Positions 11,954 to 35,138 are shown, counted from the stretch's first letter. The stretch: 64,000 nt of DNA from a virus (IMGVR_UViG_3300030060_002738:1-64000); one strand, 5' to 3'. A program made the numbers and translations. Notes: a model not told the origin generated them from the sequence alone.

Positions 11954-12156
11954 ATTAGATTCACATCCTGTAATATTGATATTATTCCATAAATGAACAC
12001 AATAGCGAATAAAACTCGACCTGCTACTCTAATGGCAAGCCTACTGTCCTTGAGAATCTGACTTATCGCCTGTTTTCTCAATTCAGTCTCTGATTTAGGC
12101 TCTTCCTTTATCTTTACCTTTGTAAAATCTACATCTGCACTCTTGATTGGCATCAT
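11950..12156 (-). CDS. Small C-terminally anchored membrane protein between the PolB halves
   Basis: 68 aa, C-terminal TM segment VLFAIVFIYGIISIL; ATGA overlaps. Confidence 0.65.
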   Translation of the reverse strand: MMPIKSADVDFTKVKIKEEPKSETELRKQAISQILKDSRLAIRVAGRVLFAIVFIYGIISILQDVNLI

Positions 12157-21784: not shown

Positions 21785-22121
21785 CTATTCTGTGTGCTAC
21801 CCATACAACACCACCAAGACTGCTAATCTTAACCAACTCGTATGTTTTCCCTTCAACTTCAAACATGTCTTCTGTCTCTATATCAGGAACTAGACCAAAC
21901 TTTTGAGATAATTCATTTGCTATTTCATCCATGTGTTCAGCAATGTATTGAACGATTAGATGTCGTTGTATTGGCACTTTAGCATCAACTGTGACCTTTA
22001 TCTTACCTGACATCTCACATACTACACACTTGTTGCCTAAACAAATAGGACATTCTATCTCAGCAGGTAGCGGAGCAGGAAAGCGAATAGTCACTGCTTT
22101 CTTCATTGTCTGCCATCCCAT
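21708..22121 (-). CDS. Hypothetical protein with CxxC...CxxC..G Zn motif
   Basis: CPICLGNKCVVCEMSG. Confidence 0.6.
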   Translation of the reverse strand: MGWQTMKKAVTIRFPAPLPAEIECPICLGNKCVVCEMSGKIKVTVDAKVPIQRHLIVQYIAEHMDEIANELSQKFGLVPDIETEDMFEVEGKTYELVKISSLGGVVWVAHRIDEQESPRYFKSWKNLQQFKGGWLEG

Positions 22122-22624
22122 ACTCTGTATATCAGTTCATATTCAACTGTTACATCGAATGGGAACGATGCGAAGTGCAACGTTGCATTACCAAACTCAG
22201 GAGCAAAACCACTTGACCAATATTTATCCTCTTGAACCAAGTAGCCTTGCCAACCTACCCAACTGTAATTACTGAATATGACAGAGTTATTCACTACCTC
22301 AAAGGATAGGTGTGTTATATTGTATGTGAGGGATTGGAGTTCAATTGCTCCATAACTAGTGTTAACATCTACCCAAATTGTAGGGGCGTGTATGAATGAT
22401 TCATTACTAGTATTATCCATAACAAGAGTGAACTCTCCTGTCATAGACACCCAATCTGCTTGTGCTGTCTGTCCTTCAAACTCCTCTTCCGGTGGGCTAG
22501 GTAATCCATCTGTGCATCCTGCTAGGAGTGCTACTGCTATCATCAAAACTATTGCTTTACTGATGCTGGTCTTCATCGTCATCATCCTCTCGCAAACACA
22601 GGAAGGATAAATAAGTTGCTTCAC
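22103..22624 (-). CDS. Putative lipoprotein
   Basis: Signal-like segment ending in lipobox LLAG|C. Confidence 0.65.
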   Translation of the reverse strand: MKQLIYPSCVCERMMTMKTSISKAIVLMIAVALLAGCTDGLPSPPEEEFEGQTAQADWVSMTGEFTLVMDNTSNESFIHAPTIWVDVNTSYGAIELQSLTYNITHLSFEVVNNSVIFSNYSWVGWQGYLVQEDKYWSSGFAPEFGNATLHFASFPFDVTVEYELIYRVWDGRQ

Positions 22625-22710
22625 TCAAAGGAAAACCCAAACTCTGTTAGTTTGGACTGTCTATGTCCGAATCCAGTAAAGCCAAACTCCGGTAATCTTG
22701 TCTGTCTCAT
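22621..22710 (-). CDS. 29-aa tandem PIP-box-like micropeptide
   Basis: MRQTRLPEFGFTGFGHRQSKLTEFGFSFE; GGAGG SD, ATGA overlap upstream and GTGA overlap downstream. Confidence 0.65.
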   Translation of the reverse strand: MRQTRLPEFGFTGFGHRQSKLTEFGFSFE

Positions 22711-22841
22711 TGTTCATCCTCCATCATTTCCATAACTGCTAAACCAGTTAACACCTTTGTCTGTATCGTAAGTAACTCGATTATCTCATCTAGTTTTCTT
22801 TCGACTGCTCTTGCATGTCTATCATATCTTCCATTCTTCAT
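22707..22841 (-). CDS. Small helical protein (44 aa)
   Basis: Manually translated; fills the gap, and its stop overlaps the next ATG. Confidence 0.5.
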   Translation of the reverse strand: MKNGRYDRHARAVERKLDEIIELLTIQTKVLTGLAVMEMMEDEQ

Positions 22842-23082
22842 TCTTATCCCCCGCTATTCCTAATTCATCTTTCAGTTGCTCTACATGGTCTTTCAGCCAT
22901 CTCAAAGCACCTTTTGCTTGCATTCCATCTGTCAGTGCATCCTCATCTTTCAACGCACTATCCATTATGGAAATGGCTAACTGTAAACCACTTAGTTTAC
23001 CAGCCATATGACCACCTTGGTAGCCATCCATAAATGAGTTACTGAAGTATTTCAGCGAATCTCCATTATATCTTCTCTTCAT
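22822..23082 (-). CDS. Hypothetical protein
   Basis: Overlapping ORF in operon. Confidence 0.55.
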   Translation of the reverse strand: MKRRYNGDSLKYFSNSFMDGYQGGHMAGKLSGLQLAISIMDSALKDEDALTDGMQAKGALRWLKDHVEQLKDELGIAGDKNEEWKI

Positions 23083-23468
23083 ACTTGTTGCCCCCTTACA
23101 ATTACAATTATCTCTTTATGTGGAAAGAGACTTTTCATTACACTCTTGGCGTTCTTGATTGCTCTTCTCATATCCTTGTTGAACAAAACAAGACCATGCC
23201 ATGTTCCTGCAATTGTAATACCGATGAAGTTAGGTCTTTCAATACCGTTAGATGACCAACCTGACCAACCTGCCTCGTATTTTTGCCATTCTTTACCTTG
23301 ACCTTCACCCCATGACTCAGGGTTTTCATAACCATGAGATATTCTCTCTATTGTACCCTCTGCTAATGCCTCTTGTATTGTTTCTTCAATCGCAAAATCT
23401 TTCACGGCATTTCTTACATTCCTGTCGGGGTATTCAACACCCACATACACCATTGTTGGGTCACTCAT
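23079..23468 (-). CDS. Hypothetical protein
   Basis: ATGA-coupled ORF. Confidence 0.6.
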   Translation of the reverse strand: MSDPTMVYVGVEYPDRNVRNAVKDFAIEETIQEALAEGTIERISHGYENPESWGEGQGKEWQKYEAGWSGWSSNGIERPNFIGITIAGTWHGLVLFNKDMRRAIKNAKSVMKSLFPHKEIIVIVRGQQV

Positions 23469-23710
23469 TCTTTCACCACCGACTTAGGGAAGAATACATC
23501 TTCCCAAACTGTCATCTGTGCTTCTGTCATCTTGGTGGTGAGGGTAGTACCACTTCGTAGATGTATTTCCACTTCGTAGGTATTCTTCTTCAGCATACCT
23601 TCTTGTATCTCAACGACTGAATAGGCAGAAACCTCTGCCATATTCAATGTCGTTTGTGCTACTTCACCATCCACATATGTCGTTGTTATTTTGTAAAATC
23701 TTTCTTTCAT
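23465..23710 (-). CDS. Hypothetical protein
   Basis: ATGA-coupled ORF. Confidence 0.6.
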   Translation of the reverse strand: MKERFYKITTTYVDGEVAQTTLNMAEVSAYSVVEIQEGMLKKNTYEVEIHLRSGTTLTTKMTEAQMTVWEDVFFPKSVVKE

Positions 23711-24519
23711 TCGTTTTCCTCCTGTTCTCGTAATCTGCTAAGATGTACTTCCTTTGCTCTCTTTGTCCATGCCGTTGTTAACTCACCATGCTCATCGAAG
23801 ATTAGATTTGATTCAGGCCCACCATTCGCTATTCTCCTGTTAGTTCTCTGAGTAGGGTTGTCATCCTTACATGCTAGACAATACGGTTGATTCGCTAACC
23901 TTCTTCTGTTGATAGTGTGGCAACATGAAGAGCGATGTGGCCCTTTTGCGTTCTTGTTGCCCTTGGTCTTCCTCTCCTCTGCGTAGTTGTCACTCCACAT
24001 TTGCCAAAGGTCAGTCTTCATGTACCACTTAGCCCAATACTCGTTGTCTGTCTGCCACTCACGCAATAGGTACAACGAGCCATCGATGTGCCTGACGACT
24101 GAGAAACTGATTCCTATCATATCCTTGTCTTCTACTTCCACAACTCTTCCTATCGCTGTCTCTCTAGCGAGTTTGTTAGCATATCTTTGCTCCGCAGACA
24201 CTGGAACGTGAACTGGCTTTGTCAAGCCTCCTGCTCTTATCTCAGGTCTCACTGGAACAGCGTCTTTCTTCCTGCGTCTCTTAGTCTCCTTCTCATCACG
24301 ATGTTTTTTCACTTTCTCTTCAGTGTTCTTAACTTCCTCAATCTTAGCCTTCGGTAATGTCACGTTAGTCTGTGGTACTGCCGATACGCCTAATCCTGAA
24401 TACACATCGTATCTAAGATGCTCACCAAGTAGGTAAACACTCTCAATGTCCTTGCAATTTATTAGTATGTCTTTTCCTTCTTTTATCTCAAATGCCCAAT
24501 ATTTCATTGTCATCACCAT
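23707..24519 (-). CDS. Hypothetical basic protein with Cys/His cluster
   Basis: 270-aa ORF; HRSSCCH...YCLAC. Confidence 0.6.
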   Translation of the reverse strand: MVMTMKYWAFEIKEGKDILINCKDIESVYLLGEHLRYDVYSGLGVSAVPQTNVTLPKAKIEEVKNTEEKVKKHRDEKETKRRRKKDAVPVRPEIRAGGLTKPVHVPVSAEQRYANKLARETAIGRVVEVEDKDMIGISFSVVRHIDGSLYLLREWQTDNEYWAKWYMKTDLWQMWSDNYAEERKTKGNKNAKGPHRSSCCHTINRRRLANQPYCLACKDDNPTQRTNRRIANGGPESNLIFDEHGELTTAWTKRAKEVHLSRLREQEENE

Positions 24520-24554
24520 TATTATAATTATGATAGTATTTATAGTAACAAATA

Positions 24555-24962
24555 CTACTCTTCTTCTCCATGCAGGTAAACACCTGCCTTTATTTTGTCT
24601 AACATTTGTTGAGCAGAAGTAGGCTCATGATAGGAACTTCCCCAATAGGGGTCTAGTCTATCATCAGGAATCATATCCCAACTATCCGACATTGAATCCT
24701 CAAACGAAACGCTATCCACAAAGTCAGGATTCTTCAAAAGGAGAAGAGGCTCATGCCAATCTCCATCTTCCTGTGCTTGTTTGATTGCTTCATGCATCTC
24801 TTCTGCTTTATCATCAGGTAGTTCGACCCAATAGACCATAGCATGTCTCTGCCTGTTCAAACCTGCTCTCATTGAGATAGTCGCAGGAGCAGCACCTATC
24901 TCTTCGCATTCCATGAACGATTCTAATCCATGAGCATCTACTATTCCACAATAAGTCTTCAT
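24555..24962 (-). CDS. Hypothetical acidic protein
   Basis: ATGA-coupled to the JAB gene. Confidence 0.6.
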   Translation of the reverse strand: MKTYCGIVDAHGLESFMECEEIGAAPATISMRAGLNRQRHAMVYWVELPDDKAEEMHEAIKQAQEDGDWHEPLLLLKNPDFVDSVSFEDSMSDSWDMIPDDRLDPYWGSSYHEPTSAQQMLDKIKAGVYLHGEEE

Positions 24963-25507
24963 TCCTCTTCACCGCCCAATACACCTTCTGCTGCTTTGAC
25001 CCACTCAGGTTTAGAAGGCTCTTGTTGATATATCGCATACTGAACTCTCTTTGCTATCTCACTATTGCAATCGTAGCAGATAAACTGGTTATCTCCAAGA
25101 ACCGTTGCACTCTCCATCATTCCCTTCCATGAATGAATAGTCTTCCAATCAGTGCCACTGAAGAAAGCCTGTCCAAACGGATGTGTGTGTATCCAGCATT
25201 TCAGTGGTATCTTCATACCACCTAGTTGCTCCTCTTGGTCTTTGAAACTCACAAAGCCAAACGTTCCCACACTAACATACAAGTCATCCTTGGCATCAAC
25301 AATCACTTGTACCTCTCTAGGAGAATCGAATGCATTCAGAGACTTGTTCCATATCACTGTGTAGAACGCCTCTGTATGATTGTTTGGGAAAGGATACTCA
25401 AACGGTATCTTACTGAACACCGTCTTGATATCCTCAATCCAATTCTCATCTACTATCTCTAGTCCTTCTATTCCTTTATTTTCATATTCTGTTTCATCTG
25501 TTTTCAT
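24959..25507 (-). CDS. JAB/MPN+ metalloprotease (deubiquitinase-like)
   Basis: Catalytic E (PREVQV) plus WIHTHP...FFSGTD, i.e. E-xn-H-x-H-x7-S-x2-D. Confidence 0.85.
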   Translation of the reverse strand: MKTDETEYENKGIEGLEIVDENWIEDIKTVFSKIPFEYPFPNNHTEAFYTVIWNKSLNAFDSPREVQVIVDAKDDLYVSVGTFGFVSFKDQEEQLGGMKIPLKCWIHTHPFGQAFFSGTDWKTIHSWKGMMESATVLGDNQFICYDCNSEIAKRVQYAIYQQEPSKPEWVKAAEGVLGGEEE

Positions 25508-25509
25508 TT

Positions 25510-25752
25510 TTATATTCCTCCCATTTGTTCTACTCTCATGTCTTGTTCGTTCTCAAACTCATGGTATGCTCTGTGTCCTGCTATGAACCCACCAGCATGT
25601 CTTTTCGTTCCTAAGAACTCCTCACCACAAACTGGACAAACGACCTTTACAATCATCGCCTGTTTGTAGTATCCATCTGTCGATATTATCGTCAGCATAT
25701 TTCCTATGTCTTCTTCGCTTATGTCGTCTATGTTTGCATCTTCTTTACTCAT
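25510..25752 (-). CDS. C2H2 Zn-finger microprotein
   Basis: CPVCGEEF...HRAYH. Confidence 0.65.
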   Translation of the reverse strand: MSKEDANIDDISEEDIGNMLTIISTDGYYKQAMIVKVVCPVCGEEFLGTKRHAGGFIAGHRAYHEFENEQDMRVEQMGGI

Positions 25753-26033
25753 GTTTTCACCACCATGTAATGTCGAAGTGATTTGATTGGTCTTGGTGGG
25801 ACTAACCGAGGTTCTTCGACTACAACCTCTACTTCTTCTATTTCCTTCTGTACCTCTTTGATGTCCATTCCCTTTTGCATGGGAAGAAGTACACTCCTTC
25901 TATACTGTTCCTTCCACATCACTTGAATACAGTCATTGCATAACCTTCTGCTATCTGCCAAGTGTTCAGGAACAGGCTCATCCTCTTTACCACAAAGAGT
26001 CTTTCCTAAAATCGAGAAATGAATATACTTCAT
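25749..26033 (-). CDS. Small Zn-finger protein
   Basis: H...LCG...LCNDC. Confidence 0.55.
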   Translation of the reverse strand: MKYIHFSILGKTLCGKEDEPVPEHLADSRRLCNDCIQVMWKEQYRRSVLLPMQKGMDIKEVQKEIEEVEVVVEEPRLVPPRPIKSLRHYMVVKT

Positions 26034-26275
26034 TCCCCTTTCTCCTTGTATGCAGGATGCTTCTTCGGCAACCTGTGCAGTCTCTTCTCTATCTTGTTGT
26101 TAACAAATGATGCAATCTCATTAACACCATTCTTCCAACGCTTCTCTAACTCGCTATAATACTGGTCGCCTTTGTGTTGTAGCACCATCTTTTCTTCTAA
26201 TTCTGTTAAGTCTATTTTATCCATTATATATTTCAATACTTCATATTCAACATGTACCTTTGAACTCGCTCTCAT
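26030..26275 (-). CDS. Hypothetical protein
   Basis: ATGA-coupled ORF. Confidence 0.55.
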   Translation of the reverse strand: MRASSKVHVEYEVLKYIMDKIDLTELEEKMVLQHKGDQYYSELEKRWKNGVNEIASFVNNKIEKRLHRLPKKHPAYKEKGE

Positions 26276-26439
26276 TCATCTTCACCTCTACATTTTTTAC
26301 ATGATAGATTTGTTTTACATCTACCACAAATCACTAATGCATCCTTCAGTGGAAGAGCAGCACCTGCACTATTCATATGACCTAAGAAGGTCTCAATTGG
26401 ATAGTGACAGGAACACTCTTCACAATCGCATTCTTTCAT
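26272..26439 (-). CDS. Cys-rich microprotein (55 aa, 8 Cys and 2 His) coupled to E1
   Basis: MKECDCEECSCHYPIETFLGHMNSAGAALPLKDALVICGRCKTNLSCKKCRGEDE; ATGA overlaps at both ends. Confidence 0.6.
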   Translation of the reverse strand: MKECDCEECSCHYPIETFLGHMNSAGAALPLKDALVICGRCKTNLSCKKCRGEDE

Positions 26440-27041
26440 ATGTTTAACACCATCTTATCGATGACATCATCATTGTCGTTGAACCACTTCTGTATCCACT
26501 GTGACGCTACACCTGCAATCACGATGTTCATACAGTCAATTCCCTTTGGACTTCCATCCCAATCAGTCGCCTGACATGAGAAAGAACCCTCTTGACCAGC
26601 AAGAAAGGCATCCATGAGATTAGGGTCTATCTTGTAGGAAATTAATGCTGCATTTCGCCCCTGCGCTCGCAAATCTAGCCACTTAATCTTGGCTTCTGAC
26701 CCAAACCCCTGCCGATACAACAAACGCCTCACAGCAAGGTTATCCGCACAGCAGATTACCAAATGATAACCCTGTAACTGCTTCTCGGTTAGAACCCTGA
26801 ATGGCTCATCTCTTACTGTTCCACGATTATTAGTGTCGTAAACTTTGACAGCAAGAGTGGTTGCCTTGTTCTCCCCAATATCAGAGACATTAAAGTTCTG
26901 ATATCCTATGTTCTTTCTCTCAACACCATCGTCATCCCATAGTGTTATCTTGTATCCTAGTCTTTGGAGAAACTGAGTTAGAAAACTCCCTATTCCTCCT
27001 GCTCCAATTATCATTACTCTTCTATTTATCATTTTCATCAC
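26436..27041 (-). CDS. ThiF/MoeB/E1-family ubiquitin-like activating enzyme
   Basis: IIGAGGIGS, DDDGVERKNIGYQ, IGENKA, CCADN...RR, candidate catalytic Cys in SFSCQ. Confidence 0.85.
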   Translation of the reverse strand: MMKMINRRVMIIGAGGIGSFLTQFLQRLGYKITLWDDDGVERKNIGYQNFNVSDIGENKATTLAVKVYDTNNRGTVRDEPFRVLTEKQLQGYHLVICCADNLAVRRLLYRQGFGSEAKIKWLDLRAQGRNAALISYKIDPNLMDAFLAGQEGSFSCQATDWDGSPKGIDCMNIVIAGVASQWIQKWFNDNDDVIDKMVLNI

Positions 27042-27261
27042 CTATATCTATTATCCCATCTATTTGTTGTTGTTGATACTCATGCCAAGCATCGACTATC
27101 TCATGTGTTATTCCATCCATTGTCGCTCCGACAACGGAGATTGCGTCTTCTAGCACAGTTCTTCTTACTATATTCTTCAACTGTGGTAGACTTTCATACT
27201 CTTCAATGAACTTACTGAAGTGGTATTGCATTTTCTTTAGTGTGTCAATTACATCTTCCAT
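27022..27261 (-). CDS. Hypothetical protein
   Basis: 79-aa ORF between tfb and E1. Confidence 0.55.
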   Translation of the reverse strand: MEDVIDTLKKMQYHFSKFIEEYESLPQLKNIVRRTVLEDAISVVGATMDGITHEIVDAWHEYQQQQIDGIIDIGDENDK

Positions 27262-27262
27262 C

Positions 27263-28180
27263 TTAATACGCTCCTGCTACAAAATCACTCACCGATAGAC
27301 TACACATGTCTTCCTTAGTCAAACCGAAGACCTCACACAATGCATGAAGGCTTACTCTCACTCCACTCGTTGATGCTGAACTTCCTGATGCATCGACTAA
27401 CTCTGCCTGTGTGACTTTGATATTCTCCATCTTTCCTGCAACCCAAAGACTCGCTATGATTAGGTTAGGAGAGAGACGCATTTGCTTAACTTTGTAGCAC
27501 TGCTCTATATGTTTTATCAACCGCAGTGCTTTCATTCTATACTCAGGGTCAATTCTTCTGTGTGATTCCAGTCTATCTATGATAGATATTGCTTCAGCCA
27601 TGATATTTCTATGAGTAAAGACTGAAGCGTTTCTGAAATGCTTTGCAATCCTCTTTGCCCAACGTGAGACATACTTACTCTCAACATACGAGAATTTGCT
27701 GTGTGTCTTTAGATTGACAGGTATCTGACTCTCCTTTAGTATGTAATAAGTCAAGGATGCTGCTCTTTGCTCAACTGTGCATCCTCTTAACACATGCTCT
27801 TCTTTCAATGACTTCAGGTATGTCTCAACCTTGTCCATGATACTCTTACTTGCTTTGTAGTTTGACATAATCATCCTTGACCTCGTAATTGTCTCTCTAT
27901 CTGCTTCGGTAAGAGAAGATGCCCAAACGTGCTGTCTTTTCATACGGCTAAACTGTGAGTTAGTGGGAGAGTATTGCCGAGGATAGCCCATGTATGAACC
28001 AAGTCTGTTTGTCACCTCATGTGTCTGTTGACCATCTCTGATTATAGATGTGGTCTCTTCAAACGGCCTGTGGTATAGAACTAAACCGCAGTCTCGACAT
28101 ATCATCTCGCCTATTGCATCGTTGAAGTAACTACTTTCACACTCACATTCGGGACACTTCATGTGCGCTTCTACTTCCAT
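27263..28180 (-). CDS. tfb: Transcription factor B (TFIIB-like)
   Basis: N-terminal Zn ribbon CPEC...GEMICRDCGLVL, followed by two cyclin-like repeats (LRG...AASLTY; P...IASLW...TQAEL). Confidence 0.8.
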   Translation of the reverse strand: MEVEAHMKCPECECESSYFNDAIGEMICRDCGLVLYHRPFEETTSIIRDGQQTHEVTNRLGSYMGYPRQYSPTNSQFSRMKRQHVWASSLTEADRETITRSRMIMSNYKASKSIMDKVETYLKSLKEEHVLRGCTVEQRAASLTYYILKESQIPVNLKTHSKFSYVESKYVSRWAKRIAKHFRNASVFTHRNIMAEAISIIDRLESHRRIDPEYRMKALRLIKHIEQCYKVKQMRLSPNLIIASLWVAGKMENIKVTQAELVDASGSSASTSGVRVSLHALCEVFGLTKEDMCSLSVSDFVAGAY

Positions 28181-29403
28181 ACCATCTTCTCCGTAAACTT
28201 AGCATTCTTGATATCCTTCTTCGGTATTCGGAAGGATGTCTTCTTTACATTCCTCAAAGTAGAGACCATCTTGGAAGCGTGTTTGTCGTTCTTCACCAAC
28301 ATCGCCCTTGTTGCTATTTGGTCTCCTGTTACGTTCTTGCTGTTGATGTCATCTATGCAGAACGGGCCTTCAGTCTTATCCATTGAACCATTGAAGAACA
28401 ATACCTTGCATCTTTGAGTACCTGCACTATTGTTGTTAGGATAAACCAACCAATCTCCTAGTTCTCCACTAACATGCATAGCAAAGTGGTATTTTCTTGA
28501 CTTTTCTGATACACTTGTTGTAGAAAACGGTGGTTTTCTTAAGTCTACTAGTGTAAACTCATCATAATTCTTATCCATGTCTTGAAGCAACTCAAATGCT
28601 CGCTCTTCTACAATCACACTCGTTCTGTTCTGCATCAACCATGATTTCATCAGTGCCTCTTCAGCATCTGTGATATGAGTATTGAACATATTATACCAAA
28701 GGTTGGCAGGACTGATATCAGCCCACTTCTTTGACCTCTTTGCTCCGTTTCTATAACAGTCAATGAACGTGTTAGCATCATCAAGAGGCAAAGAACCCCA
28801 AACATGCTCTGAAACCTCAAACGCAACTTCATCTCTACCAATCAAGGTAGTGTTAATCTTAACTTCAGTCTTGACACCGCCCTTGAAGAACCAATAAGGA
28901 CAACGGTTCTCAATAGCATACAAAATGTTGCTTGAGTAAGTCACGTTCCTGTCAATGTAGTTCTCCATTGCTTCACAGTCACGGTTCTGTCCCCCGAATG
29001 CTATAATTTTAGCAAGGGCCATTGCGACATCCACTTGATTCTTCTTTACTCCGTTCATATACAATGAAGAGCCATCCTTCCGCAACATTACAGAAGCATC
29101 ACCATTCTTGTATCGAAACGTAATCCAAGTCATCTCATTAGAATGAGAAGTTGGTGTTGTCTGAACAAACAGACGATACATGTTGTTTGCAAACTTGTTC
29201 CAGTATCTATTCTCATGGAACTTCTTCTTTGTTTCTTCGTTTTTCATCGAGAATTCTCTTTCACCATATTGGTTCGGGCTTCTAGTTAGTCTCGTAATAG
29301 CCCTACGATTTGACTTACAAAGGAATGTACTGTGGTCTGCCTCTATTTCTCTATCACTTCTTACTGTTGGTAAGTTTACTTTCATTTTCATTTTTATCAC
29401 CAT
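28171..29403 (-). CDS. 410-aa protein; C-terminal domain is a candidate E2-like (Cys) domain
   Basis: Beta-rich C-terminus with EGPFCIDD (compare UBC G.ICLD); located between the Ubl and E1 genes. Function tentative. Confidence 0.4.
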   Translation of the reverse strand: MVIKMKMKVNLPTVRSDREIEADHSTFLCKSNRRAITRLTRSPNQYGEREFSMKNEETKKKFHENRYWNKFANNMYRLFVQTTPTSHSNEMTWITFRYKNGDASVMLRKDGSSLYMNGVKKNQVDVAMALAKIIAFGGQNRDCEAMENYIDRNVTYSSNILYAIENRCPYWFFKGGVKTEVKINTTLIGRDEVAFEVSEHVWGSLPLDDANTFIDCYRNGAKRSKKWADISPANLWYNMFNTHITDAEEALMKSWLMQNRTSVIVEERAFELLQDMDKNYDEFTLVDLRKPPFSTTSVSEKSRKYHFAMHVSGELGDWLVYPNNNSAGTQRCKVLFFNGSMDKTEGPFCIDDINSKNVTGDQIATRAMLVKNDKHASKMVSTLRNVKKTSFRIPKKDIKNAKFTEKMVWK

Positions 29404-29632
29404 TTCTTTCTAAATATAGCCTGTAATCGTACAGGTCTTTCAATGTTGCATCAGTTTGGATATCCGAATAACCCAAACGAATGTAGTATCTTATGTGTTT
29501 GATGAGGGAGGGAGTTCTACGACTCCCATCCCTTACTTCACCAAACATTCTTTTTGTTGTTTCCTTTGCCCCACTGTTAATCATTGATTCAACAACTTCA
29601 TCCTCAATCTTCAACAGTTGCGCCTTGTTCAT
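29354..29632 (-). CDS. Hypothetical protein
   Basis: ATGA-coupled to the RNR gene. Confidence 0.55.
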   Translation of the reverse strand: MNKAQLLKIEDEVVESMINSGAKETTKRMFGEVRDGSRRTPSLIKHIRYYIRLGYSDIQTDATLKDLYDYRLYLERNGDKNENESKLTNSKK

Positions 29633-31515
29633 ATTTCACATACTCCGCCAGCACAGGCAAGTTCGCCCTGCAAGTCAGTATTATCTTCTGTCTCGATAAC
29701 TTCTTCCAAGTTTATCTCGGTTAGAAGGTTCAGCATAGTTTCATAATGCTTCTTGCTTATCGGTTCGTGTGGTGCTTGTTCATATGCACCACCATCATAG
29801 GGCAATACGGATAGACCATTGTAGAAGTCTCTGTTCTTCCACATCCAGTTCCTTACGTCATTCCACTCATCATCACGAATGTTAACTGTCGCAGATACAT
29901 TGTGAGTGTTGACTCCTCTGTTATGTCCTGAGACAACCCAATCTACTGAGACTTTCTTCACTCTCTCAAGCATCTCCAATGCTGACTCGTCTCTTGTTAT
30001 TGAGTCACCAGCAGGTGTCTTCTGTGGTATTGAGATGACTGCCTGTGTAGGACTCATCTTATCATCCTCTACCAAATCAGGGAACTTCTCAATGAGGTAT
30101 CGATAGATAGCCTCAGTCTTGAGAACTCTTATTCTCCTGATGTAGTATTGAGACCACCAAGCATGAATGCCTGATGATGTTCCCATAACTAGACTGGTAG
30201 TTCCAGCAGGTTTGACACAAGTGATTCTCGCTGCCGTCTTGATACCTAATGCACTAGCAATAACCTCATTGGTCTTCCTTGCTTTCTCAGCAGCGAGTTC
30301 CATATCCAAGTCTAGAACTCCACCACTTGCTATGCCTGTCATTGACACACCAAGTAGAGCATCCTTCTCTGAAGTCTTCTTCCATACTTCCCTTAGATAG
30401 TGAAAGTCAGTGTAAGATGCTTGTAGTGTTCCTAAGAAGGCTGCTGCCTTCACTCTCTGATTAAGTTCCCTCTGTGTTCTAACATCGGAAACATTTACCT
30501 CTGTCAAGTTACAGAACTGATAGGGTCTAAGTGCTATCTCGCAGCAGGGGTTTGTTCCCCAATCCTTGTCATTCGTGAAGTAGAAACCGGGTTCTCCTGT
30601 TCCCGATTTCCGAACTCTCTTCCATAGATTGTTGAAGAAGTCCCTCTTAATTCTGTGTCGTAGTAGAACCACTGAGTTGTTTGCTCTTGACCTCTGAGCA
30701 TTTCTCTCCCAAAAGTGACCTGACTTGCAGGTTATCATCTCGTCATCATCTGCACTGAACAACGAAATCATCGCTGCTCTTCTTATTCCACCTGCTAATA
30801 CTGCATCAGCAATGTGACACAGAATGTCGTGGACTTCTATTGGTCGAAGTTTGTCACCATTATGCTTGTTAGATAGTATTCCCTCTACCTTCACCAAGCA
30901 TTCCTTCAATGGTTGAGGGCCGGGTGCTTTACCACCACTAGTCTTCAATGGTGTTCCCTTTGGTCTAATGTCTGAGTAGTCAAATCTGACTGTTGTTGCT
31001 CTCTTACCTATGTAGGACTCAAACAATACCTTGACTGCATCAGCCCATCCCTCAATAGAATCACCTATCAAATGTCGATAGGTTCTCTTTGGGTTTGGTA
31101 GTCTAATCTCAGGCAGTTGCTCAACGTGATGATACTGCACTGAGTATCCTACGCCTGTGCCTCCTAGCAATAGGAACATTGCCTCTGAGAATGATAGATA
31201 GTGATTGATTGGCATGTAAGCACAATTGTAAACACGGTTAGGTGATAGTTCAATCGGCTTACCTGCAAACTGCATAGACCTCATTGAAGGTAGTACCTTC
31301 TTCGGGATAACGAAGTTGTCATAGACATCATTGATTCTATCAACTAATACGGACTTGTCATACGACAGGTCAGACTTCTCAATAGTATTGAGATGCATCT
31401 GCCTGTTTCTCTCACAAATTTCTTCCCAAGTCTCTTTTCTTTGTTCTGCTTCTTTCCACTTTGCATACTTCATATGCACAGTGATATCTGATAATATCTC
31501 TTGTTGTATTTCCAT
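29629..31515 (-). CDS. nrdJ: Class II (B12-dependent, monomeric-type) ribonucleotide reductase
   Basis: NCAY, GGIRRAA, TNPCCEI, CNLTE, VKPAGT, C-terminal CAGGVC. Confidence 0.92.
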   Translation of the reverse strand: MEIQQEILSDITVHMKYAKWKEAEQRKETWEEICERNRQMHLNTIEKSDLSYDKSVLVDRINDVYDNFVIPKKVLPSMRSMQFAGKPIELSPNRVYNCAYMPINHYLSFSEAMFLLLGGTGVGYSVQYHHVEQLPEIRLPNPKRTYRHLIGDSIEGWADAVKVLFESYIGKRATTVRFDYSDIRPKGTPLKTSGGKAPGPQPLKECLVKVEGILSNKHNGDKLRPIEVHDILCHIADAVLAGGIRRAAMISLFSADDDEMITCKSGHFWERNAQRSRANNSVVLLRHRIKRDFFNNLWKRVRKSGTGEPGFYFTNDKDWGTNPCCEIALRPYQFCNLTEVNVSDVRTQRELNQRVKAAAFLGTLQASYTDFHYLREVWKKTSEKDALLGVSMTGIASGGVLDLDMELAAEKARKTNEVIASALGIKTAARITCVKPAGTTSLVMGTSSGIHAWWSQYYIRRIRVLKTEAIYRYLIEKFPDLVEDDKMSPTQAVISIPQKTPAGDSITRDESALEMLERVKKVSVDWVVSGHNRGVNTHNVSATVNIRDDEWNDVRNWMWKNRDFYNGLSVLPYDGGAYEQAPHEPISKKHYETMLNLLTEINLEEVIETEDNTDLQGELACAGGVCEI

Positions 31516-31597
31516 AAATTCATCTCCTTACGAGTTAAACATGGGCATTGCACCCACTCGGCAGTCAATCTAACCACTGCTAAGACTATCTACGATT

Positions 31598-31804
31598 TCA
31601 GACTCCGCCAACAACGGCTTCTTGCAATCGAACTTCGTTGACTGTATCCCAATCAACATCAGGGATGTTCTCCCTCATTACCATGTCGCCATCGATGAAC
31701 ACCCAATGTGTAGGGTGGTCAGTTATCTGCTCAATGACGCTGGCTGCGTTCACTTCCATTTCTGTGTGTCCTCTTTCATTTGCTATATACAATTTCATTT
31801 TCAT
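31598..31804 (-). CDS. Ubiquitin-like (beta-grasp, SAMP/ThiS-like) protein with masked C-terminal GG-V
   Basis: 68 aa after a GGAGG SD; WVFIDG strand, EVRLQEAVVGG|V end. Confidence 0.75.
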   Translation of the reverse strand: MKMKLYIANERGHTEMEVNAASVIEQITDHPTHWVFIDGDMVMRENIPDVDWDTVNEVRLQEAVVGGV

Positions 31805-31828
31805 TTGCCTCCTTTTTTTCATTCATTC

Positions 31829-32038
31829 TTATTCGCTGTTCAATTCTTGGATTCTTCCAGAAAGAAGAGCGATTGTTCTTTCGTATTGCTTGGTTAGTCC
31901 AATGTGGTTATTAGCCAGTTGAACTACGGTTTGCAATTGACCGTTCAGGGTGACGATTTGCTGTTCTAGTTCAGCAATCCTCTCATCCTTCGGGTCTACT
32001 TTTTCTGTCTTCTTGGTTTCTTTCTTTTCTTTTGTCAT
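31829..32038 (-). CDS. Small coiled-coil protein
   Basis: Heptad pattern. Confidence 0.6.
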   Translation of the reverse strand: MTKEKKETKKTEKVDPKDERIAELEQQIVTLNGQLQTVVQLANNHIGLTKQYERTIALLSGRIQELNSE

Positions 32039-33171
32039 TCCTTTACCTCCTTTAATTCATCAATCAACGCCGAGATTTCTCCTTTTGTTAATGACTCTGT
32101 TTCTCCTTCGTAGCCGAGAACCCGCAGGTAATTCACCTGACGCTCAGTTGGCTTATCATTGTAACGATTCACTATATCTATGAGTTTAGATATTTGTCGT
32201 TCTGACAGTTCTCTCCGTCTTATGATACGACTCTCCATGTCAGTCAAGAATCTCTTCTCCCAACTGTTTATTCCCATGTCCGGTTTGAACACAGGGATGT
32301 CCATGTACTCACATGCTTCTCTGAACTCATGTTCTTTCTTCTCACGAAGAACACTATTCCTAAGTGCAATCTGCTTGCGATAGTTTTCGTTGTGGAGTCT
32401 GTCTTTCTCCATCTTCTCGTCTTCAAGCCTGACAGTTTCTTTGTGTCGTTCTATCAGCATATGAAAGATATCCAAATCAGTCATCAGTTTCTCATTCGGA
32501 TATCCCTTAGTGTGTATCTGAGCCTTCGGATTGTCAGGATGATTCCATCGCCAAACAATAGAAGCCATCTCATAATCCATAGTTCCGGGGTTGCCCTTTC
32601 CTTTCTTGCGAACCATCGTCTCAGGCACAGTAATGCCTAGTGTTCGGTCATAGATGTGCTTACCACTTCTACGAACATTGATTCTCAAATCAAGTTCCTT
32701 TATCTCATTGAATCTCTTTGTGAAGTCCTCGCCGTTATGTCTCCACCAAGCATCCTTGATTAGTGCGGAGACCCTGACATCAATCCATTCTTGAATCATG
32801 TCTTCGGTAATTGCTTCAGCGTTCATACCTGTTTCTTCAACAATAGCCCTGAGAATCATGTAGGAGTTAATGTGGTCTGAACCAACACACTCTCTAACAT
32901 CAGTCTCGGTATTGTGAATCTCAAAGTGGTAAACTATGTGATGCTCGCACAGGCACTTGTTAGGATGGTTCAATGCCCAATCAGGTCTTGGAGTTCCAAT
33001 CCCTTCCCACCAAACTTCTCCTGTCGCAATCCACTCATGCTTCGCATCATCGTAGTTGTCAGCAACTGAAAGAGTAACCATGTTCTCTCTCAGTTTCCTA
33101 TCCCATCTACCATTTCCTAGTTCTCTCTTTGCTCTAACTCTATCTTCTATTTCCATTGTCATTTTATTCAC
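32035..33171 (-). CDS. Hypothetical protein with Zn motif (CLCEHHI...CVGSDHI)
   Basis: 378-aa ORF. Confidence 0.65.
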   Translation of the reverse strand: MNKMTMEIEDRVRAKRELGNGRWDRKLRENMVTLSVADNYDDAKHEWIATGEVWWEGIGTPRPDWALNHPNKCLCEHHIVYHFEIHNTETDVRECVGSDHINSYMILRAIVEETGMNAEAITEDMIQEWIDVRVSALIKDAWWRHNGEDFTKRFNEIKELDLRINVRRSGKHIYDRTLGITVPETMVRKKGKGNPGTMDYEMASIVWRWNHPDNPKAQIHTKGYPNEKLMTDLDIFHMLIERHKETVRLEDEKMEKDRLHNENYRKQIALRNSVLREKKEHEFREACEYMDIPVFKPDMGINSWEKRFLTDMESRIIRRRELSERQISKLIDIVNRYNDKPTERQVNYLRVLGYEGETESLTKGEISALIDELKEVKE

Positions 33172-33283
33172 CTACATATTCTTTCTTGGAACATGCCTTG
33201 CAGAAGATTCCTCTTCCAGTGAAGGAACTCCACAATACTCCCATCCTTCCACATTTGGCACATCTTCCAACTTCTTTACTCAT
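33164..33283 (-). CDS. Zn-ribbon microprotein (39 aa)
   Basis: CAKC...CKAC; manually translated. Confidence 0.5.
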   Translation of the reverse strand: MSKEVGRCAKCGRMGVLWSSFTGRGIFCKACSKKEYVGE

Positions 33284-33575
33284 GCTCATCTTCGCCAATT
33301 ATTTCAACATCTGAAGCAGCCTGAAGGTCTCTTACCTCTTGCTGTTCCATTAACACATACGCTCTTTGTTCTGCTAAGAACTCGGTTAAGATTTCGTTAA
33401 TCTTACCAAACAGTGCTTCAGCACTACCGCCAATGGTCTTCCTGTGTAGGGATAGCCATATCCTGTGTGCTACATTTATCACAACTTTCGGTCTGTCAAA
33501 CTCATCCATCGTAATAATTATCGGTGGCATTGTTACGTCATTCACTTTCCTAAATTCTACTATTTCTTCTTTCAT
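33276..33575 (-). CDS. Hypothetical protein
   Basis: ORF in operon. Confidence 0.55.
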   Translation of the reverse strand: MKEEIVEFRKVNDVTMPPIIITMDEFDRPKVVINVAHRIWLSLHRKTIGGSAEALFGKINEILTEFLAEQRAYVLMEQQEVRDLQAASDVEIIGEDEHE

Positions 33576-33877
33576 TGTTTATACCTCCCATCAAATTCAT
33601 CTTTGGGAATTAATGTGTAATACACCTTCCATAGTGCATTCTTAATTTTAGTCAATCTTTCTTTTCTTTCTAACCATCTATCATATGCCTTCTCTTGCAT
33701 GTATAGATGTTCTATATTCAAATCAGTCATGTAATCTACAAGACCGTCAAACCCTGATTGTGAGTAGACTTCATTGTAGGATTTTTCCCATTTATTAGGG
33801 TAGTCACTGAAATCATTGAACATATCTAGTTCATGTTTCTTTGTTATCAATTTCATTACTATATTCATATCTTTCAC
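33572..33877 (-). CDS. Hypothetical protein
   Basis: ORF in operon. Confidence 0.5.
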   Translation of the reverse strand: MKDMNIVMKLITKKHELDMFNDFSDYPNKWEKSYNEVYSQSGFDGLVDYMTDLNIEHLYMQEKAYDRWLERKERLTKIKNALWKVYYTLIPKDEFDGRYKQ

Positions 33878-34118
33878 CTTTATTCTTATTTTTGAATCTC
33901 TTAATCATATCATTCAAGTTATTCTTAGTTGTGGCAGTCATAAACTTCTGACCACCACGAAGGAAAATCAGGATGCTAAAGAACTTCTCAATGTGTTCGT
34001 GTTCTTTGTTCCTGAATCTATCCATCAAGGGGTCATCCTCATCTAACGGTCTCCAAGTAAATGCTTGCATCTCTTCAATAGATACAATACCGTTAGTAAA
34101 TCGGATGTAGCCTTTCAT
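33831..34118 (-). CDS. Hypothetical protein
   Basis: ORF in operon. Confidence 0.55.
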   Translation of the reverse strand: MKGYIRFTNGIVSIEEMQAFTWRPLDEDDPLMDRFRNKEHEHIEKFFSILIFLRGGQKFMTATTKNNLNDMIKRFKNKNKGERYEYSNEIDNKET

Positions 34119-34285
34119 TCTTCTTCAATTCCATGCATTGCCAACCACTCACCATAGTCAGGCTCACACCTACATAGACAAGGGACAGGTTCTTTCTCCC
34201 CATCTGCGGTTTGTAAAACTGCCGTTCCAGTTCCGTGACACACACTGCATATCTCTTCTTCTCTAGTTATCTTTACAATTCTCAT
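34115..34285 (-). CDS. Small DnaJ-type Zn (CxxCxGxG) protein, 56 aa
   Basis: CSVCHGTG...PCLC; ATGA overlaps at both ends. Confidence 0.55.
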   Translation of the reverse strand: MRIVKITREEEICSVCHGTGTAVLQTADGEKEPVPCLCRCEPDYGEWLAMHGIEEE

Positions 34286-34854
34286 ATTAATCCCAACCTC
34301 GTTAGGAAAGCATTGCTTTCTTGTTTATATTCAAACGACTTTCTCAAGTAGTGGTCTTCAGGCCACCAACTCGGTTCTTCTCTTCTCTTCCAAGTAGCGA
34401 ATCTCCACTTGTCATCAAGATAGTATTGACGATACTTCTCGATAGTCGTCATGTCATCAAATCCATCTGCCTTTCTACACTCCATGTGAGGAGAGATAGC
34501 GATGGCGAATGTCGTCAACCCATCATCAGGAAGAAGCATCTCTGCCTCATCCATCTGAGCGGAATAACGATTCATCTGAACTTCGACTTGATGGATTCGG
34601 TCATACCTGAGTGTATACTCACGACACAAAGCGTAAGTGTGATTACGCAACCATCGGAAGTTCTGTCTTGTCTCCCTAGCCCAAATAGTGCAAGGGTGAT
34701 TCAACATCACAGGTCTCCAACCTGCTTCCAAACCAAGGTAGTCCACGATGGTAAACAGCATCTGCAAACTCTCAGTCGGCATCTTGACTACATGCTTATC
34801 CAACATCATCTCAGCACTCTTGGTAGGGCAATCATCTAAACAGAATATGTTCAT
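34282..34854 (-). CDS. Pyrimidine-dimer DNA glycosylase (DenV-like family)
   Basis: MNIF.LD...DKHVVKM..E..QML...HPCTIW...YRQYY pattern. Confidence 0.75.
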   Translation of the reverse strand: MNIFCLDDCPTKSAEMMLDKHVVKMPTESLQMLFTIVDYLGLEAGWRPVMLNHPCTIWARETRQNFRWLRNHTYALCREYTLRYDRIHQVEVQMNRYSAQMDEAEMLLPDDGLTTFAIAISPHMECRKADGFDDMTTIEKYRQYYLDDKWRFATWKRREEPSWWPEDHYLRKSFEYKQESNAFLTRLGLI

Positions 34855-35138
34855 TGTTCTCTCCTTCCTGCATGTGGTAGGTCAACCTCGTTAATCTCCC
34901 AAACCTTCCAACCCAATGAGTCAAGTTCGACTTGTGAGAAAGTTCCCCATTCATCATACATGCCCTGTACGAAACCATACCAAAGTGGCGCACCACCGTA
35001 GTCTCTTCTTTCCATCTTGGTTGCAAACCAATACCAACCACTGTAAGATTCCCAACCTCTGAGAACTTCTCTCTTCGTTCCATCTGTCATTTCTATCATT
35101 AACTTGTTTTCTTCAGTTACCAGTTTTGTCATTTTCAA
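34851..35138 (-). CDS. DUF2958-like protein
   Basis: WYWFAT...YGFVQG...EWGTFS..EL. Confidence 0.55.
   Translation of the reverse strand: MKMTKLVTEENKLMIEMTDGTKREVLRGWESYSGWYWFATKMERRDYGGAPLWYGFVQGMYDEWGTFSQVELDSLGWKVWEINEVDLPHAGRREQ

What the first reader, a model, noticed from the sequence alone, without database searches (positions are those of the whole stretch)
24959..31804. Virus-encoded ubiquitin-like conjugation/deconjugation system (Ubl-GG|V, E1, JAB, E2 candidate) wrapped around RNR and TFB
Seen in sequence: one - strand gene run holds a 68-aa protein ending ...EVRLQEAVVGG-V (31598-31804), a ThiF/E1 with GAGGIG, D.D.VE..N..Q and a lone Cys in SFSCQ (26436-27041), and a JAB/MPN+ protease with E...HTH...S..D (24959-25507). 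The single Val masking the di-Gly is not explained by an SD overlap, because about 80 bp of non-coding DNA follows it. Established: E1 adenylates exposed C-terminal GG, and JAB proteases mature and deconjugate Ubls (SAMP/UbaA/JAMM1 in haloarchaea; E1-E2-JAB operons in bacterial Bil and CBASS Cap2/Cap3 systems). No ThiG, MoaE or thiouridylase is present in the window, which argues against a sulfur-relay role. Inference: an archaeal virus carries its own protein-tagging pathway, perhaps to degrade or redirect host proteins, to control its own TFB/RNR, or to counter host Ubl-based defence.
Basis: partly seen in the sequence, partly recalled or inferred. Interest (0 to 1): 0.9.

Follow-up and report, generated by a model that had tools for sequence, protein, structure and literature searches.

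The report
Virus-encoded ubiquitin-like tagging gene set
This 98-kb ocean virus of archaea carries a small ubiquitin-fold protein ending in Gly-Gly-Val, a stripped-down enzyme that activates it, a protease that trims or removes it and a large conserved partner with one invariant cysteine; the same four genes form a tight operon in many uncultured bacteriophages and sit in the chromosome of the likely host, so viruses probably tag proteins themselves, on unknown targets.

Summary
The window, a complete tailed archaeal virus that looks like a magrovirus, encodes four linked proteins on the minus strand.

- **Ubl (31598-31804):** a 68-aa beta-grasp protein. Its Gly-Gly is invariant despite synonymous codon changes and is followed by 0-4 variable residues.
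- **E1 (26436-27041):** a 201-aa ThiF-type enzyme with an invariant Ser-Cys-Gln cysteine.
- **JAB (24959-25507):** a JAMM protease with the exact E...HxHx7SxxD motif.
- **X (28171-29403):** a 410-aa protein of an uncatalogued family with one invariant Cys (C349).

X-Ubl-JAB-E1 is a tight operon in about 40 phage-type contigs, and 73 of 103 viral loci hold all four genes. A compact X-Ubl-E1-JAB operon also lies in Poseidoniales chromosomes. A complex model puts the Ubl tail in the E1 active site (ipSAE 0.76, best control 0.33).

The most likely function is Ubl conjugation (0.6). A sulfur-carrier role is not excluded. X could not be shown to be an E2. Recurrent neighbours are a class II RNR and the virus's own transcription initiation factor (TFB here, sigma-70 in phages).

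The scan has found this module before on other magroviruses and phages. No paper I could search describes it.

The parts
31598..31804 (-). Ubl precursor, 68 aa (the ORF extends to 31822). Gly66-Gly67 are at 31604-31609, the masking Val68 at 31601-31603 and the stop at 31598-31600.
29629..31515 (-). Class II (B12-type) ribonucleotide reductase, 628 aa, ending in a CxxxxC tail. It is a recurrent neighbour, not shown to be part of the system.
   Evidence: Pfam hits are Ribonuc_red_lgC 6e-10 and RNR-II_ins_dom 1.5e-7. An RNR homologue lies near the set in 48 of 63 magro-type loci and 25 of 40 phage-type loci. It also lies beside the host operon.
28171..29403 (-). Partner X, 410 aa, of an uncatalogued family. 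The invariant Cys349 (28357-28359) sits in ..PFCIDD.., followed by GDQ..R....ND......T. It is a candidate carrier (E2-like) or a client.
   Evidence: X is conserved in all related loci. The invariant residues are shown. hhalign against the roughly 700-aa proteins directly upstream of Ubl-JAB-E1 in phage-type contigs gives probability 94.6%, E 6.6e-8, with residues 101-393 aligned. X is found in 98 of 103 loci. Of the 141 or more database homologues, none of the 120 listed has a Pfam domain or an informative name.
27263..28180 (-). Virus-encoded TFB/TFIIB-like transcription initiation factor, 305 aa. It is a recurrent neighbour.
   Evidence: Pfam TFIIB Zn-ribbon scores 3.6e-6 and is just below the cut-off, and the TFIIB repeat hit is weak. 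TFB lies directly upstream of E1 in 58 of 63 magro-type loci. A sigma-70 gene lies downstream of E1 in 31 of 40 phage-type loci.
26436..27041 (-). Minimal E1 (ThiF-type adenylation domain only), 201 aa. GAGGIGS is at 26985-27005, CCADN at 26739-26753 and Cys156 at 26574-26576.
   Evidence: Pfam ThiF scores 1e-18. PDB relatives are ThiF-type proteins, MoeB, Cap2, MccB, Uba4 and Uba1. PADLOC matches Cap2 E1 regions at 4.5e-12. The wider family has 765 representatives at E<1e-10, all with S-C-Q. There are no CxxC pairs. The complex model with the Ubl scores ipSAE 0.76 against 0.33 for the best control.
25510..25752 (-). Conserved 80-aa Zn-finger-like protein (C39, C42, H60, H64) that always accompanies E1 or JAB in magro-type loci. 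Its role is unknown, and its terminal GG-x is probably a Shine-Dalgarno overlap.
   Evidence: Conservation is shown. The GG codons are mostly GGA GGA, with the next ATG 1-6 nt after the stop. The AF2 model has pLDDT 68 and is not beta-grasp.
24959..25507 (-). JAMM/MPN+ metalloprotease, 182 aa. The motif HTHPFGQAFFSGTD is at 25148-25189 and the upstream catalytic Glu46 lies at 25364-25378.
   Evidence: The motif residues are invariant. A family profile hits AMSH-LP at E 7e-5. Pfam Prok-JAB scores only E 0.01. The phage-type counterpart matches Prok-JAB at 1.4e-13.

Best explanation
The virus encodes a self-contained ubiquitin-like modification module of four proteins.

1. The JAMM protease removes the single residue (Val68) that masks the Gly-Gly end of the 68-aa beta-grasp protein. 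This step is inferred.
2. The minimal E1, probably a homodimer, binds the Ubl with its tail in the ATP site and adenylates Gly67. The binding geometry is modelled and the chemistry is inferred from the ThiF/E1 superfamily.
3. The invariant Cys156, which lies beside the tail in the model, takes the Ubl as a thioester. This step is inferred.
4. The Ubl then passes either to the invariant Cys349 of partner X, acting as a carrier, or directly to lysines of targets, as in E2-free archaeal sampylation. This step is inferred.
5. The JAMM protease can also reverse the tag.

The targets are unknown. The recurrent neighbours (a class II RNR and the virus's own TFB, or sigma-70 in phages) are the first candidates as clients or co-workers. 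The module is one branch of a family shared by magroviruses, a lineage of uncultured bacteriophages and Poseidoniales cells.
For: - **Ubl:** beta-grasp fold with an invariant C-terminal GG under protein-level selection.
- **E1:** the adenylation motifs and one family-wide invariant Cys.
- **JAB:** exact, invariant JAMM motif.
- **Complex model of the E1 dimer plus Ubl:** ipSAE 0.76, against 0.33 for the best of 3 controls. This mark was reached by 58 of 80 solved complexes and 2 of 110 mismatched pairs. The three runs share at least 97% of contacts and the partner pLDDT is at least 87. Ubl residues 61-68 touch E1 residues 13, 15-17 (the GAGGIG loop), 98-100 (CAD), 124-132 and 153-156 (SFSC). 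The pass may partly reflect memory of solved E1-Ubl complexes.
- **Gene linkage in independent contexts:**
  - X-Ubl-JAB-E1 forms tight operons in phage-type contigs that carry sigma-70 and PolA.
  - The set is dispersed but always present in magro-type loci.
  - A chromosomal X-Ubl-E1-JAB operon lies in Poseidoniales MAGs, flanked by enolase and an aminotransferase.
  - 73 of 103 viral loci hold all four genes. Most of the rest are cut off or limited by the flank fetched.
- **Tails track the protease:** extra residues after GG occur only where a JAB is present. All 6 loci without a JAB have a Ubl ending exactly in GG, against 34 of 55 with tails where a JAB is present. This fits JAB-dependent maturation, as shown for BilC removing one residue from BilA (PMC10557695).
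- **No sulfur partners:** the 98-kb genome has no sulfur-acceptor or sulfur-donor enzyme.
- **E1 type:** it lacks the CxxC Zn motifs and the rhodanese domain of the MoeB/ThiF/UbaA/Uba4 type.
- **Partner X:** it carries a single invariant Cys.
Against: - No conjugate, thioester or target has been observed. Every chemical step is inferred.
- X shows no detectable sequence similarity to any E2 family: Pfam, UQ_con in the genome, PADLOC, a PDB profile, and hhalign against Prok-E2_A at probability 0.3%, the same as the negative controls.
- Ubl+E1+JAB triads exist in sulfur-transfer pathways (PMC1779556).
- The Arg of the canonical NLxRQ motif is Tyr in this E1.
- The loci within each clade are related, so co-occurrence rests on about four independent contexts, not 103.
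Confidence: 0.6

Rival explanations
1. Sulfur-carrier system. The E1 adenylates the Ubl, a host persulfide donor converts it to a thiocarboxylate, and X (or a host enzyme) uses that sulfur to make a thio-compound, for example a modified nucleotide linked to the neighbouring RNR. The JAB only matures the carrier, as QbsD does, or releases an adduct, as Mec+ does.
Against: The viral genome has no ThiG, MoaE, TtuA/NcsA-type PP-loop, rhodanese or cysteine desulfurase. X has no recognisable sulfurtransferase or Fe-S motif and only one invariant Cys. The invariant Cys next to the Ubl tail in the E1 model fits a thioester-forming E1. The four-gene layout (Ubl, JAB, E1 and a Cys-bearing partner) parallels BilABCD.
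Confidence: 0.22
2. Interference with the host's own system. The likely host carries a homologous X-Ubl-E1-JAB operon. The viral copies may act as decoys or hijackers: the viral JAB may strip host Ubl tags from viral proteins, or the viral E1 and Ubl may compete with or redirect the host pathway. On this reading they do not run an independent tagging pathway.
For: A chromosomal operon with all four genes lies in Poseidoniales MAGs. The magrovirus JAB profile hits the host JABs at E 1e-17 to 1e-21, and the E1s are 26-37% identical. Bacterial Bil systems are anti-phage and tag phage proteins (PMC10557695 and the works cited there).
Against: The virus keeps all four components under purifying selection, including the Ubl with its GG, which a pure decoy or deconjugase strategy would not need. 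The phage-type lineage keeps the same full operon. Whether the host operon is defensive is unknown.
Confidence: 0.1
3. Another ThiF-type chemistry on the Ubl C-terminus, MccB- or PaaA-like: cyclisation, amidation or nucleotide capping. The product would be a small modified protein effector, not a tag.
For: MccB appears among the E1's PDB relatives (E 9e-5). ThiF-like enzymes perform varied C-terminal chemistry (PMC12596934 and PMC12250964, listed).
Against: The substrate is a folded beta-grasp protein with a canonical GG, not a short peptide. A JAMM protease and a Cys-bearing partner are conserved with it. No RiPP-type tailoring or export genes were seen.
Confidence: 0.05

Closest known systems
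Bacterial BilABCD systems, Types I and II (BilA Ubl, BilB E2, BilC JAB, BilD E1; PMC10557695)
   Same: Both are four-gene sets with a beta-grasp Ubl ending in Gly, often masked by one or a few residues. Both have a JAB protease; BilC is shown to remove a single residue after the Gly and to cleave conjugates. Both have an E1 and a partner with a catalytic-looking Cys. The operon is tight in the phage-type relatives.
   Different: BilD is a large E1 with tandem inactive and active adenylation domains, a mobile CYS domain and a Zn site. This E1 is 201 aa, a single adenylation domain with no CxxC and its Cys in a short SCQ loop. X is 410-790 aa, belongs to an uncatalogued family and has no detectable similarity to BilB or Prok-E2 families. 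The carrier here is a virus or an archaeon, not a bacterial defence island.
Haloarchaeal sampylation (SAMP1-3, E1 UbaA, HvJAMM1; PMC4443979, PMC4895103)
   Same: Both work in an archaeal setting with small beta-grasp GG proteins, a single E1 that may work without an E2, and a JAMM protease that removes the tag. Transcription factors are known targets there (TBP2).
   Different: UbaA is a MoeB-type E1 with CxxC Zn motifs that also serves sulfur transfer. SAMP genes are not in an operon with a large Cys-bearing partner. The viral E1 matches PDB MoeB only at E 4e-5, and its closest cellular relatives found here are Poseidoniales E1s at 26-37% identity.
ThiS/ThiF, MoaD/MoeB, CysO/Mec+ and QbsE/QbsD sulfur-carrier systems (class 4 of PMC1779556)
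   Same: Both use a beta-grasp GG carrier and a bare adenylating E1, in some cases with a JAB that trims residues after GG. MoaD is the best structural match by VIA.
   Different: No sulfur-acceptor or sulfur-donor enzyme is encoded here. The E1 lacks the Zn motifs and a rhodanese domain. A conserved unknown partner X takes the place of the acceptor enzyme.
Type II CBASS Cap2/Cap3
   Same: The E1 adenylation domain matches PADLOC Cap2 models (4.5e-12), and a JAB partner is present.
   Different: Cap2 is an E2-E1 fusion that conjugates the CD-NTase C-terminus. This window has no CD-NTase, no fusion and a separate beta-grasp Ubl.
Lambda/T1 tail assembly proteins I (Ubl) and K (JAB+NlpC/P60) (PMC1779556)
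   Same: This is the only phage-borne pairing of a Ubl and a JAB that I found described in the papers I could search.
   Different: It has no E1, lies in the tail gene cluster, and its Ubl is fused to another domain. The set described here lies in the replication and transcription region and includes an E1.

Membership tests
Ubiquitin-like beta-grasp proteins (ThiS/MoaD/Ub superfamily) | beta-grasp fold | tested here: met
Ubiquitin-like beta-grasp proteins (ThiS/MoaD/Ub superfamily) | conserved C-terminal Gly-Gly that can be activated | tested here: met
   GG is invariant in the orthologues examined and present in 118 of 120 homologues. The codons vary synonymously and 0-4 residue tails follow.
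E1/ThiF adenylation superfamily | Rossmann GxGxxG ATP loop, catalytic Asp (..DN), conserved Arg/Lys, and a Pfam ThiF score above the cut-off | tested here: met
   ThiF scores 67.8 bits against a cut-off of 28.1. GAGGIGS, D..D.VE..N..YQ, K59, CCADN and R105 are conserved. The Arg of NLxRQ is Tyr here.
MoeB/ThiF/UbaA-type E1 | two CxxC pairs that bind structural Zn | tested here: not met
   Cys occurs only at positions 97, 98, 156 and 170, so there is no CxxC.
JAMM/MPN+ metalloproteases | E...HxHx7Sx2D metal and catalytic motif | tested here: met
   E46, H107, H109, S117 and D120 are invariant with exact spacing. A family profile hits AMSH-LP, AMSH, Sst2 and Rpn11-like chains at E 7e-5 to 1e-3 over the motif region.
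JAMM/MPN+ metalloproteases | Pfam Prok-JAB or JAB score above the gathering cut-off | tested here: not met
   Prok-JAB scores 16.2 bits against a cut-off of 25. The phage-type counterpart passes at 51 bits.
BilABCD | E1 (BilD) with tandem IAD+AAD domains, a mobile CYS domain and a Zn site | tested here: not met
   The protein is 201 aa with one adenylation domain and no CxxC. The BilD features are taken from PMC10557695.
BilABCD | E2 (BilB) of the UBC fold with a catalytic Cys and an adjacent His | tested here: inconclusive
   X has an invariant Cys349. It has no sequence match to UQ_con, Prok-E2_A, PADLOC models or PDB chains.
BilABCD | the JAB pre-processes the Ubl to expose Gly and cleaves conjugates | not testable with these tools
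   There is only indirect support: tails after GG occur only in loci with a JAB.
Sulfur-carrier pathways (thiamin, Moco, tRNA thiolation, CysO, Qbs) | a cognate acceptor or donor enzyme encoded with the carrier (ThiG, MoaE, TtuA/NcsA, rhodanese, IscS) | tested here: not met
   None was found in the 98-kb genome, while the control genomes matched. Host enzymes could still serve.
Type II CBASS (Cap2/Cap3) | an E2-E1 fusion acting on a CD-NTase | tested here: not met
   Only the adenylation domain matches the Cap2 models. There is no fusion, and no Cap2-type E2 region or other CBASS model matched the ten neighbouring proteins scanned with PADLOC.

The most novel reading that the evidence does not exclude
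X-Ubl-JAB-E1 is a portable protein-tagging cassette that travels with a class II RNR and sits beside the virus's own transcription initiation factor, in viruses of both bacteria (sigma-70) and archaea (TFB). On this reading X is a new family of Ubl carrier or ligase. The virus uses the cassette to tag and re-program host or viral replication and transcription proteins (RNR, TFB/TBP, sigma/RNAP), or to subvert the homologous host system. That would be the first virus-owned ubiquitin-like conjugation pathway in prokaryotic viruses.
Probability: 0.3. Interest if true: 0.9.

Novelty: new variant of a known kind. Interest (0 to 1): 0.78.

Why it matters
Ubiquitin-like conjugation in prokaryotes has so far been studied as a cellular function, in archaeal sampylation and in bacterial Bil and CBASS defence. 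Here the machinery belongs to viruses, including one of the most abundant groups of ocean archaeal viruses.

It comes in a much reduced form: a roughly 200-aa E1 and a partner family that no catalogue describes. It occurs in at least 395 viral contigs and in no cultured phage genome of the collection searched.

If it conjugates, this would be a minimal and tractable E1 system. It would also offer a new candidate carrier fold and a new way for viruses to take over host cells. It would bear on how E1-E2 cascades arose. The conserved links to RNR and to initiation factors give concrete, testable target hypotheses.

Tried and rejected
- **A second Ubl?** The conserved 80-aa protein (25510-25752) also ends in GG plus one residue in every orthologue. 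I rejected it as a second Ubl. Its GG codons are mostly GGA GGA, with the next ATG 1-6 nt after the stop, so they form the next gene's Shine-Dalgarno site. The model is Zn-finger-like, not beta-grasp (pLDDT 68). Many genes here end in G-E-E-E for the same reason.
- **E2 identity of X.** No support came from Pfam, UQ_con in the genome, PADLOC, a PDB profile, two ESM Atlas look-ups or hhalign against six Prok-E2_A domains (probability 0.3%, like the negative controls). The positive control in that test (phage JAB against magrovirus JAB) reached only 23%, so the test is weak.
- **Sequence profiles against PDB.** Profiles of the Ubl and of the 80-aa protein gave nothing meaningful.
- **RNA elements.** Rfam found no family in 24000-33000. 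The Ubl-RNR spacer fold is not unusual (z -1.0).
- **Expression.** No RNA holder was listed.
- **Cultured phages.** There is no close relative of the mini-E1; the only hits were distant ThiF genes in two jumbo phages. A DNA search found no named magrovirus record.
- **Tools.** The first complex-prediction run failed and was repeated unchanged.
- **PDB codes.** The 9EGB-9EGD chains, the best E1 match, could not be traced to a paper.
- **Literature.** Papers on magroviruses and archaeal tailed viruses do not mention ubiquitin, ThiF or JAB. Phrase searches for virus- or phage-encoded Ubl systems found nothing.

Full report
**What the window is.** The window is the first 64 kb of a 98,040-bp IMG/VR virus record rated complete. 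It encodes a terminase, a portal, a family B DNA polymerase and two ATP-dependent ligases. It also encodes a TFB-like factor, so the host is an archaeon. The closest cellular relatives of its E1 and JAB are in Poseidoniales (Marine Group II) MAGs. RNR-bearing magroviruses are described as group B (PMC5434244). I therefore treat it as a magrovirus by inference. No named magrovirus record was available for comparison.

**The observation.**
- **Ubl (31598-31804):** the ORF ends VVGG-V, followed by 82 nt of spacer.
- **E1 (26436-27041):** a clear ThiF-family protein (E 1e-18).
- **JAB (24959-25507):** only a sub-threshold Pfam hit (E 0.01). It carries the exact JAMM motif with all five residues invariant in 15 aligned orthologues. 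A family profile finds AMSH-LP, AMSH, Sst2 and an archaeal Rpn11-like protein (E 7e-5 to 1e-3).

**Is the small protein a Ubl?** It has no Pfam family.
- An AF2 model built on 14 orthologues is confident (pLDDT 87) and has the b-b-a-b-b-a-b order of a beta-grasp.
- The first 50 Foldseek matches are all ubiquitin, ISG15, SUMO or NEDD8, though with modest scores.

The fold is therefore ThiS/MoaD/Ub-like, but it cannot tell a tag from a sulfur carrier.
- In 22 related viral loci the GG is invariant. It is followed by nothing or by V, F, Y, C, L, IR, TE, LQ or GNQ.
- Among 120 database homologues, 118 keep GG within the last eight residues.
- The Gly codons vary synonymously and no gene starts nearby, so selection acts on the protein.

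The conserved 80-aa protein next to the JAB also ends in GG plus one residue. There the codons are GGA GGA immediately before the next ATG, which makes them a Shine-Dalgarno overlap. Its model is Zn-finger-like. I do not count it as a second Ubl.

**The E1.** It is a bare adenylation domain.
- It has no CxxC pairs, no rhodanese domain and no inserted Cys domain.
- A profile search of 1.8 billion representatives finds 765 relatives at E<1e-10. Most are 185-205 aa.
- In 104 of these, aligned together, the ATP loop, D..D.VE, K, DN...R, DLR..G and an S-C-Q motif are conserved. The Cys is invariant.
- In a complex model of two E1 chains and one Ubl, the Ubl tail (residues 61-68) lies against the GAGGIG loop, the CAD of CCADN, residues 124-132 and SFSC (153-156).
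- That model scores ipSAE 0.76, against 0.33 for the best of three controls. The mark was reached by 58 of 80 solved complexes and 2 of 110 mismatched pairs. The runs share at least 97% of contacts and the partner pLDDT is at least 87.
- This is the canonical E1-Ubl pose, so part of the score may be memory of solved complexes.

**A fourth member, and the wider family.** With the distant mini-E1s as query, 395 viral contigs encode a relative.
- In about 40 of the 80 fetched loci the E1 sits in a tight same-strand operon. The order is a 550-800-aa protein (X), a 65-85-aa protein ending ..LVGG, usually a 140-200-aa JAMM protein, then the E1.
- In those loci the JAB matches Pfam Prok-JAB at 1.4e-13. 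The next genes are a sigma-70 family factor and a family A DNA polymerase, so these are bacteriophages.
- The magrovirus Ubl profile recognises these small proteins (E 4e-7 to 8e-3).
- The C-terminal part of phage X aligns with the magrovirus 410-aa protein (28171-29403) by BLAST (best E 4e-6, always the same region).
- A joint alignment shows an invariant Cys-Ile, Asp, Arg, Asn-Asp and Thr.
- hhalign gives probability 94.6%, E 6.6e-8, with magrovirus residues 101-393 aligned to phage residues 456-717.
- X has 141 or more database homologues. None of the 120 listed has a Pfam domain or an informative name.

Tally over 103 viral loci:

| Content of locus | Loci | Comment |
|---|---|---|
| All four genes | 73 | |
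| No Ubl within the flank | 18 | Magro-type, where the Ubl lies about 5 kb away |
| Cut short | 5 | |
| No JAB | 7 | One of these is cut off just after E1 |

The six complete loci without a JAB all have a Ubl that ends exactly in GG. Tails occur only where a JAB is present (34 of 55 distinct Ubls). This is the pattern expected if the JAB matures the precursor.

**The host.** Earlier notes of this scan say the host has a related set, so I scanned species genomes.
- Three closely related Poseidoniales MAGs carry a compact X-Ubl-E1-JAB operon. Its Ubl ends ..GLVGG-N and shares the TGHT motif.
- The operon is flanked by enolase and an aminotransferase, so it is chromosomal.
- Other Poseidoniaceae MAGs have an adjacent E1-JAB pair with no Ubl detected nearby.
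- A Methanoperedens contig has JAB, X and E1.

**Recurrent neighbours.**
- TFB lies directly upstream of E1 in 58 of 63 magro-type loci. A sigma-70 gene lies 1-4 kb downstream of E1 in 31 of 40 phage-type loci.
- A class II RNR homologue follows the Ubl by 43-498 nt in all but one of the 34 magro-type loci that hold both (there the two ORFs overlap by 25 nt), and it is present in 48 of 63 magro-type loci. It precedes X by one small gene in 25 of 40 phage-type loci.
- The RNR gene is convergent with the host operon in two lineages whose RNRs are 64% identical.

Within each clade the loci are related, so these are a few independent observations. Both genes also belong to replication and expression modules. 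I report them as leads to the targets, not as findings.

**Conjugation or sulfur transfer?**

For conjugation:
- The four-part layout parallels BilABCD, where the JAB removes a single residue after Gly and the E1 and E2 cysteines are needed for conjugates (PMC10557695).
- The E1 has an invariant Cys beside the tail.
- The partner has a single invariant Cys.
- The genome has no sulfur donor or acceptor.
- The E1 lacks MoeB/UbaA-type Zn motifs.

Against conjugation:
- X shows no similarity to any E2.
- MoaD is the best structural match.
- Ubl+E1+JAB triads serve sulfur chemistry elsewhere (PMC1779556).
- Nothing has been measured.

I put conjugation at 0.6, a sulfur carrier at about 0.2, and interference with the host system at about 0.1.

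**Novelty.** None of the papers I could search mentions these genes. That covers papers on magroviruses and Poseidoniales viruses and on archaeal tailed viruses. Phrase searches for virus- or phage-encoded Ubl systems also found nothing. The only phage Ubl-JAB pair described is the lambda/T1 tail-assembly pair, which has no E1. No cultured phage in the collection has this E1.

This scan has reported the same module several times on other magroviruses and phages. My results agree with those notes on the four genes, the phage operon and the host relative. I reached the phage operon and X independently before reading the notes. One note says the tail of a phage X was predicted to be E2-like, and I could not test that.

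I class the finding as a new variant of a known kind of system.

Noticed in passing
window 25510-25752 (-): A conserved 80-aa protein has invariant C39, C42, H52, H60, H64 and the motif GTKRHAGGF. It sits directly before the JAB in some magro-type loci and directly after E1 in others. It is Zn-finger-like with a long C-terminal helix, and its function is unknown. It could be an adaptor or a target of the system.
   Followed up: partly
window 31516-31597 (-), and the same spacer in L002-L011: The spacer between the Ubl and RNR genes holds a motif conserved across close relatives (AGTCTTAGCAGT.GT.AGATTGACTGCC). No Rfam family matches, and the fold is no more stable than shuffled sequence (z -1.0). 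It may be a promoter or terminator element.
   Followed up: partly
window 22000-35000, many minus-strand genes: Many genes end in ..G-E-E-E or ..GG-x because their last codons double as the GGAGG-type Shine-Dalgarno site of the next, tightly coupled gene. This can fake Gly-rich C-termini in this genome.
   Followed up: partly
L025-L061, between the RNR and X genes (for example L039:1961-2389): Phage-type loci carry a conserved protein of about 120-145 aa between RNR and X; most copies end ..LF[DE/N], while L030 and L044 do not. It is not related to the 92-aa protein at the same place in magroviruses (29354-29632).
   Followed up: no
proteins P0222, P0247, P0249 (relatives of the mini-E1): Some relatives are tandem fusions of two ThiF domains (427-468 aa). 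This pseudo-dimeric layout recalls the inactive-plus-active adenylation domains of BilD and eukaryotic E1s. P0198 has an HRDC domain within a ThiF-family protein, and P0189 has an N-terminal HTH.
   Followed up: no
L161 (Thalassarchaeum MAG contig, 8.2 kb): This locus shows two X-like ORFs and two Ubl-like ORFs around a TFB-like gene. It is either a duplicated set or a binned viral fragment.
   Followed up: no
L105 (contig binned as Altibacter sp.): A 43-kb contig in a Flavobacteriaceae MAG carries the magro-type set (Ubl, RNR, X, E1 at 48% identity, JAB and the 80-aa protein). It is most likely a magrovirus contig placed in the wrong bin.
   Followed up: no
window 12153-13850 (-) and 19981-21528 (-), 58453-61017 (+): The family B polymerase hit covers only part of the Pfam model within a 565-aa ORF, which may mean a split PolB. 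The window also holds two separate ATP-dependent ligase genes.
   Followed up: no
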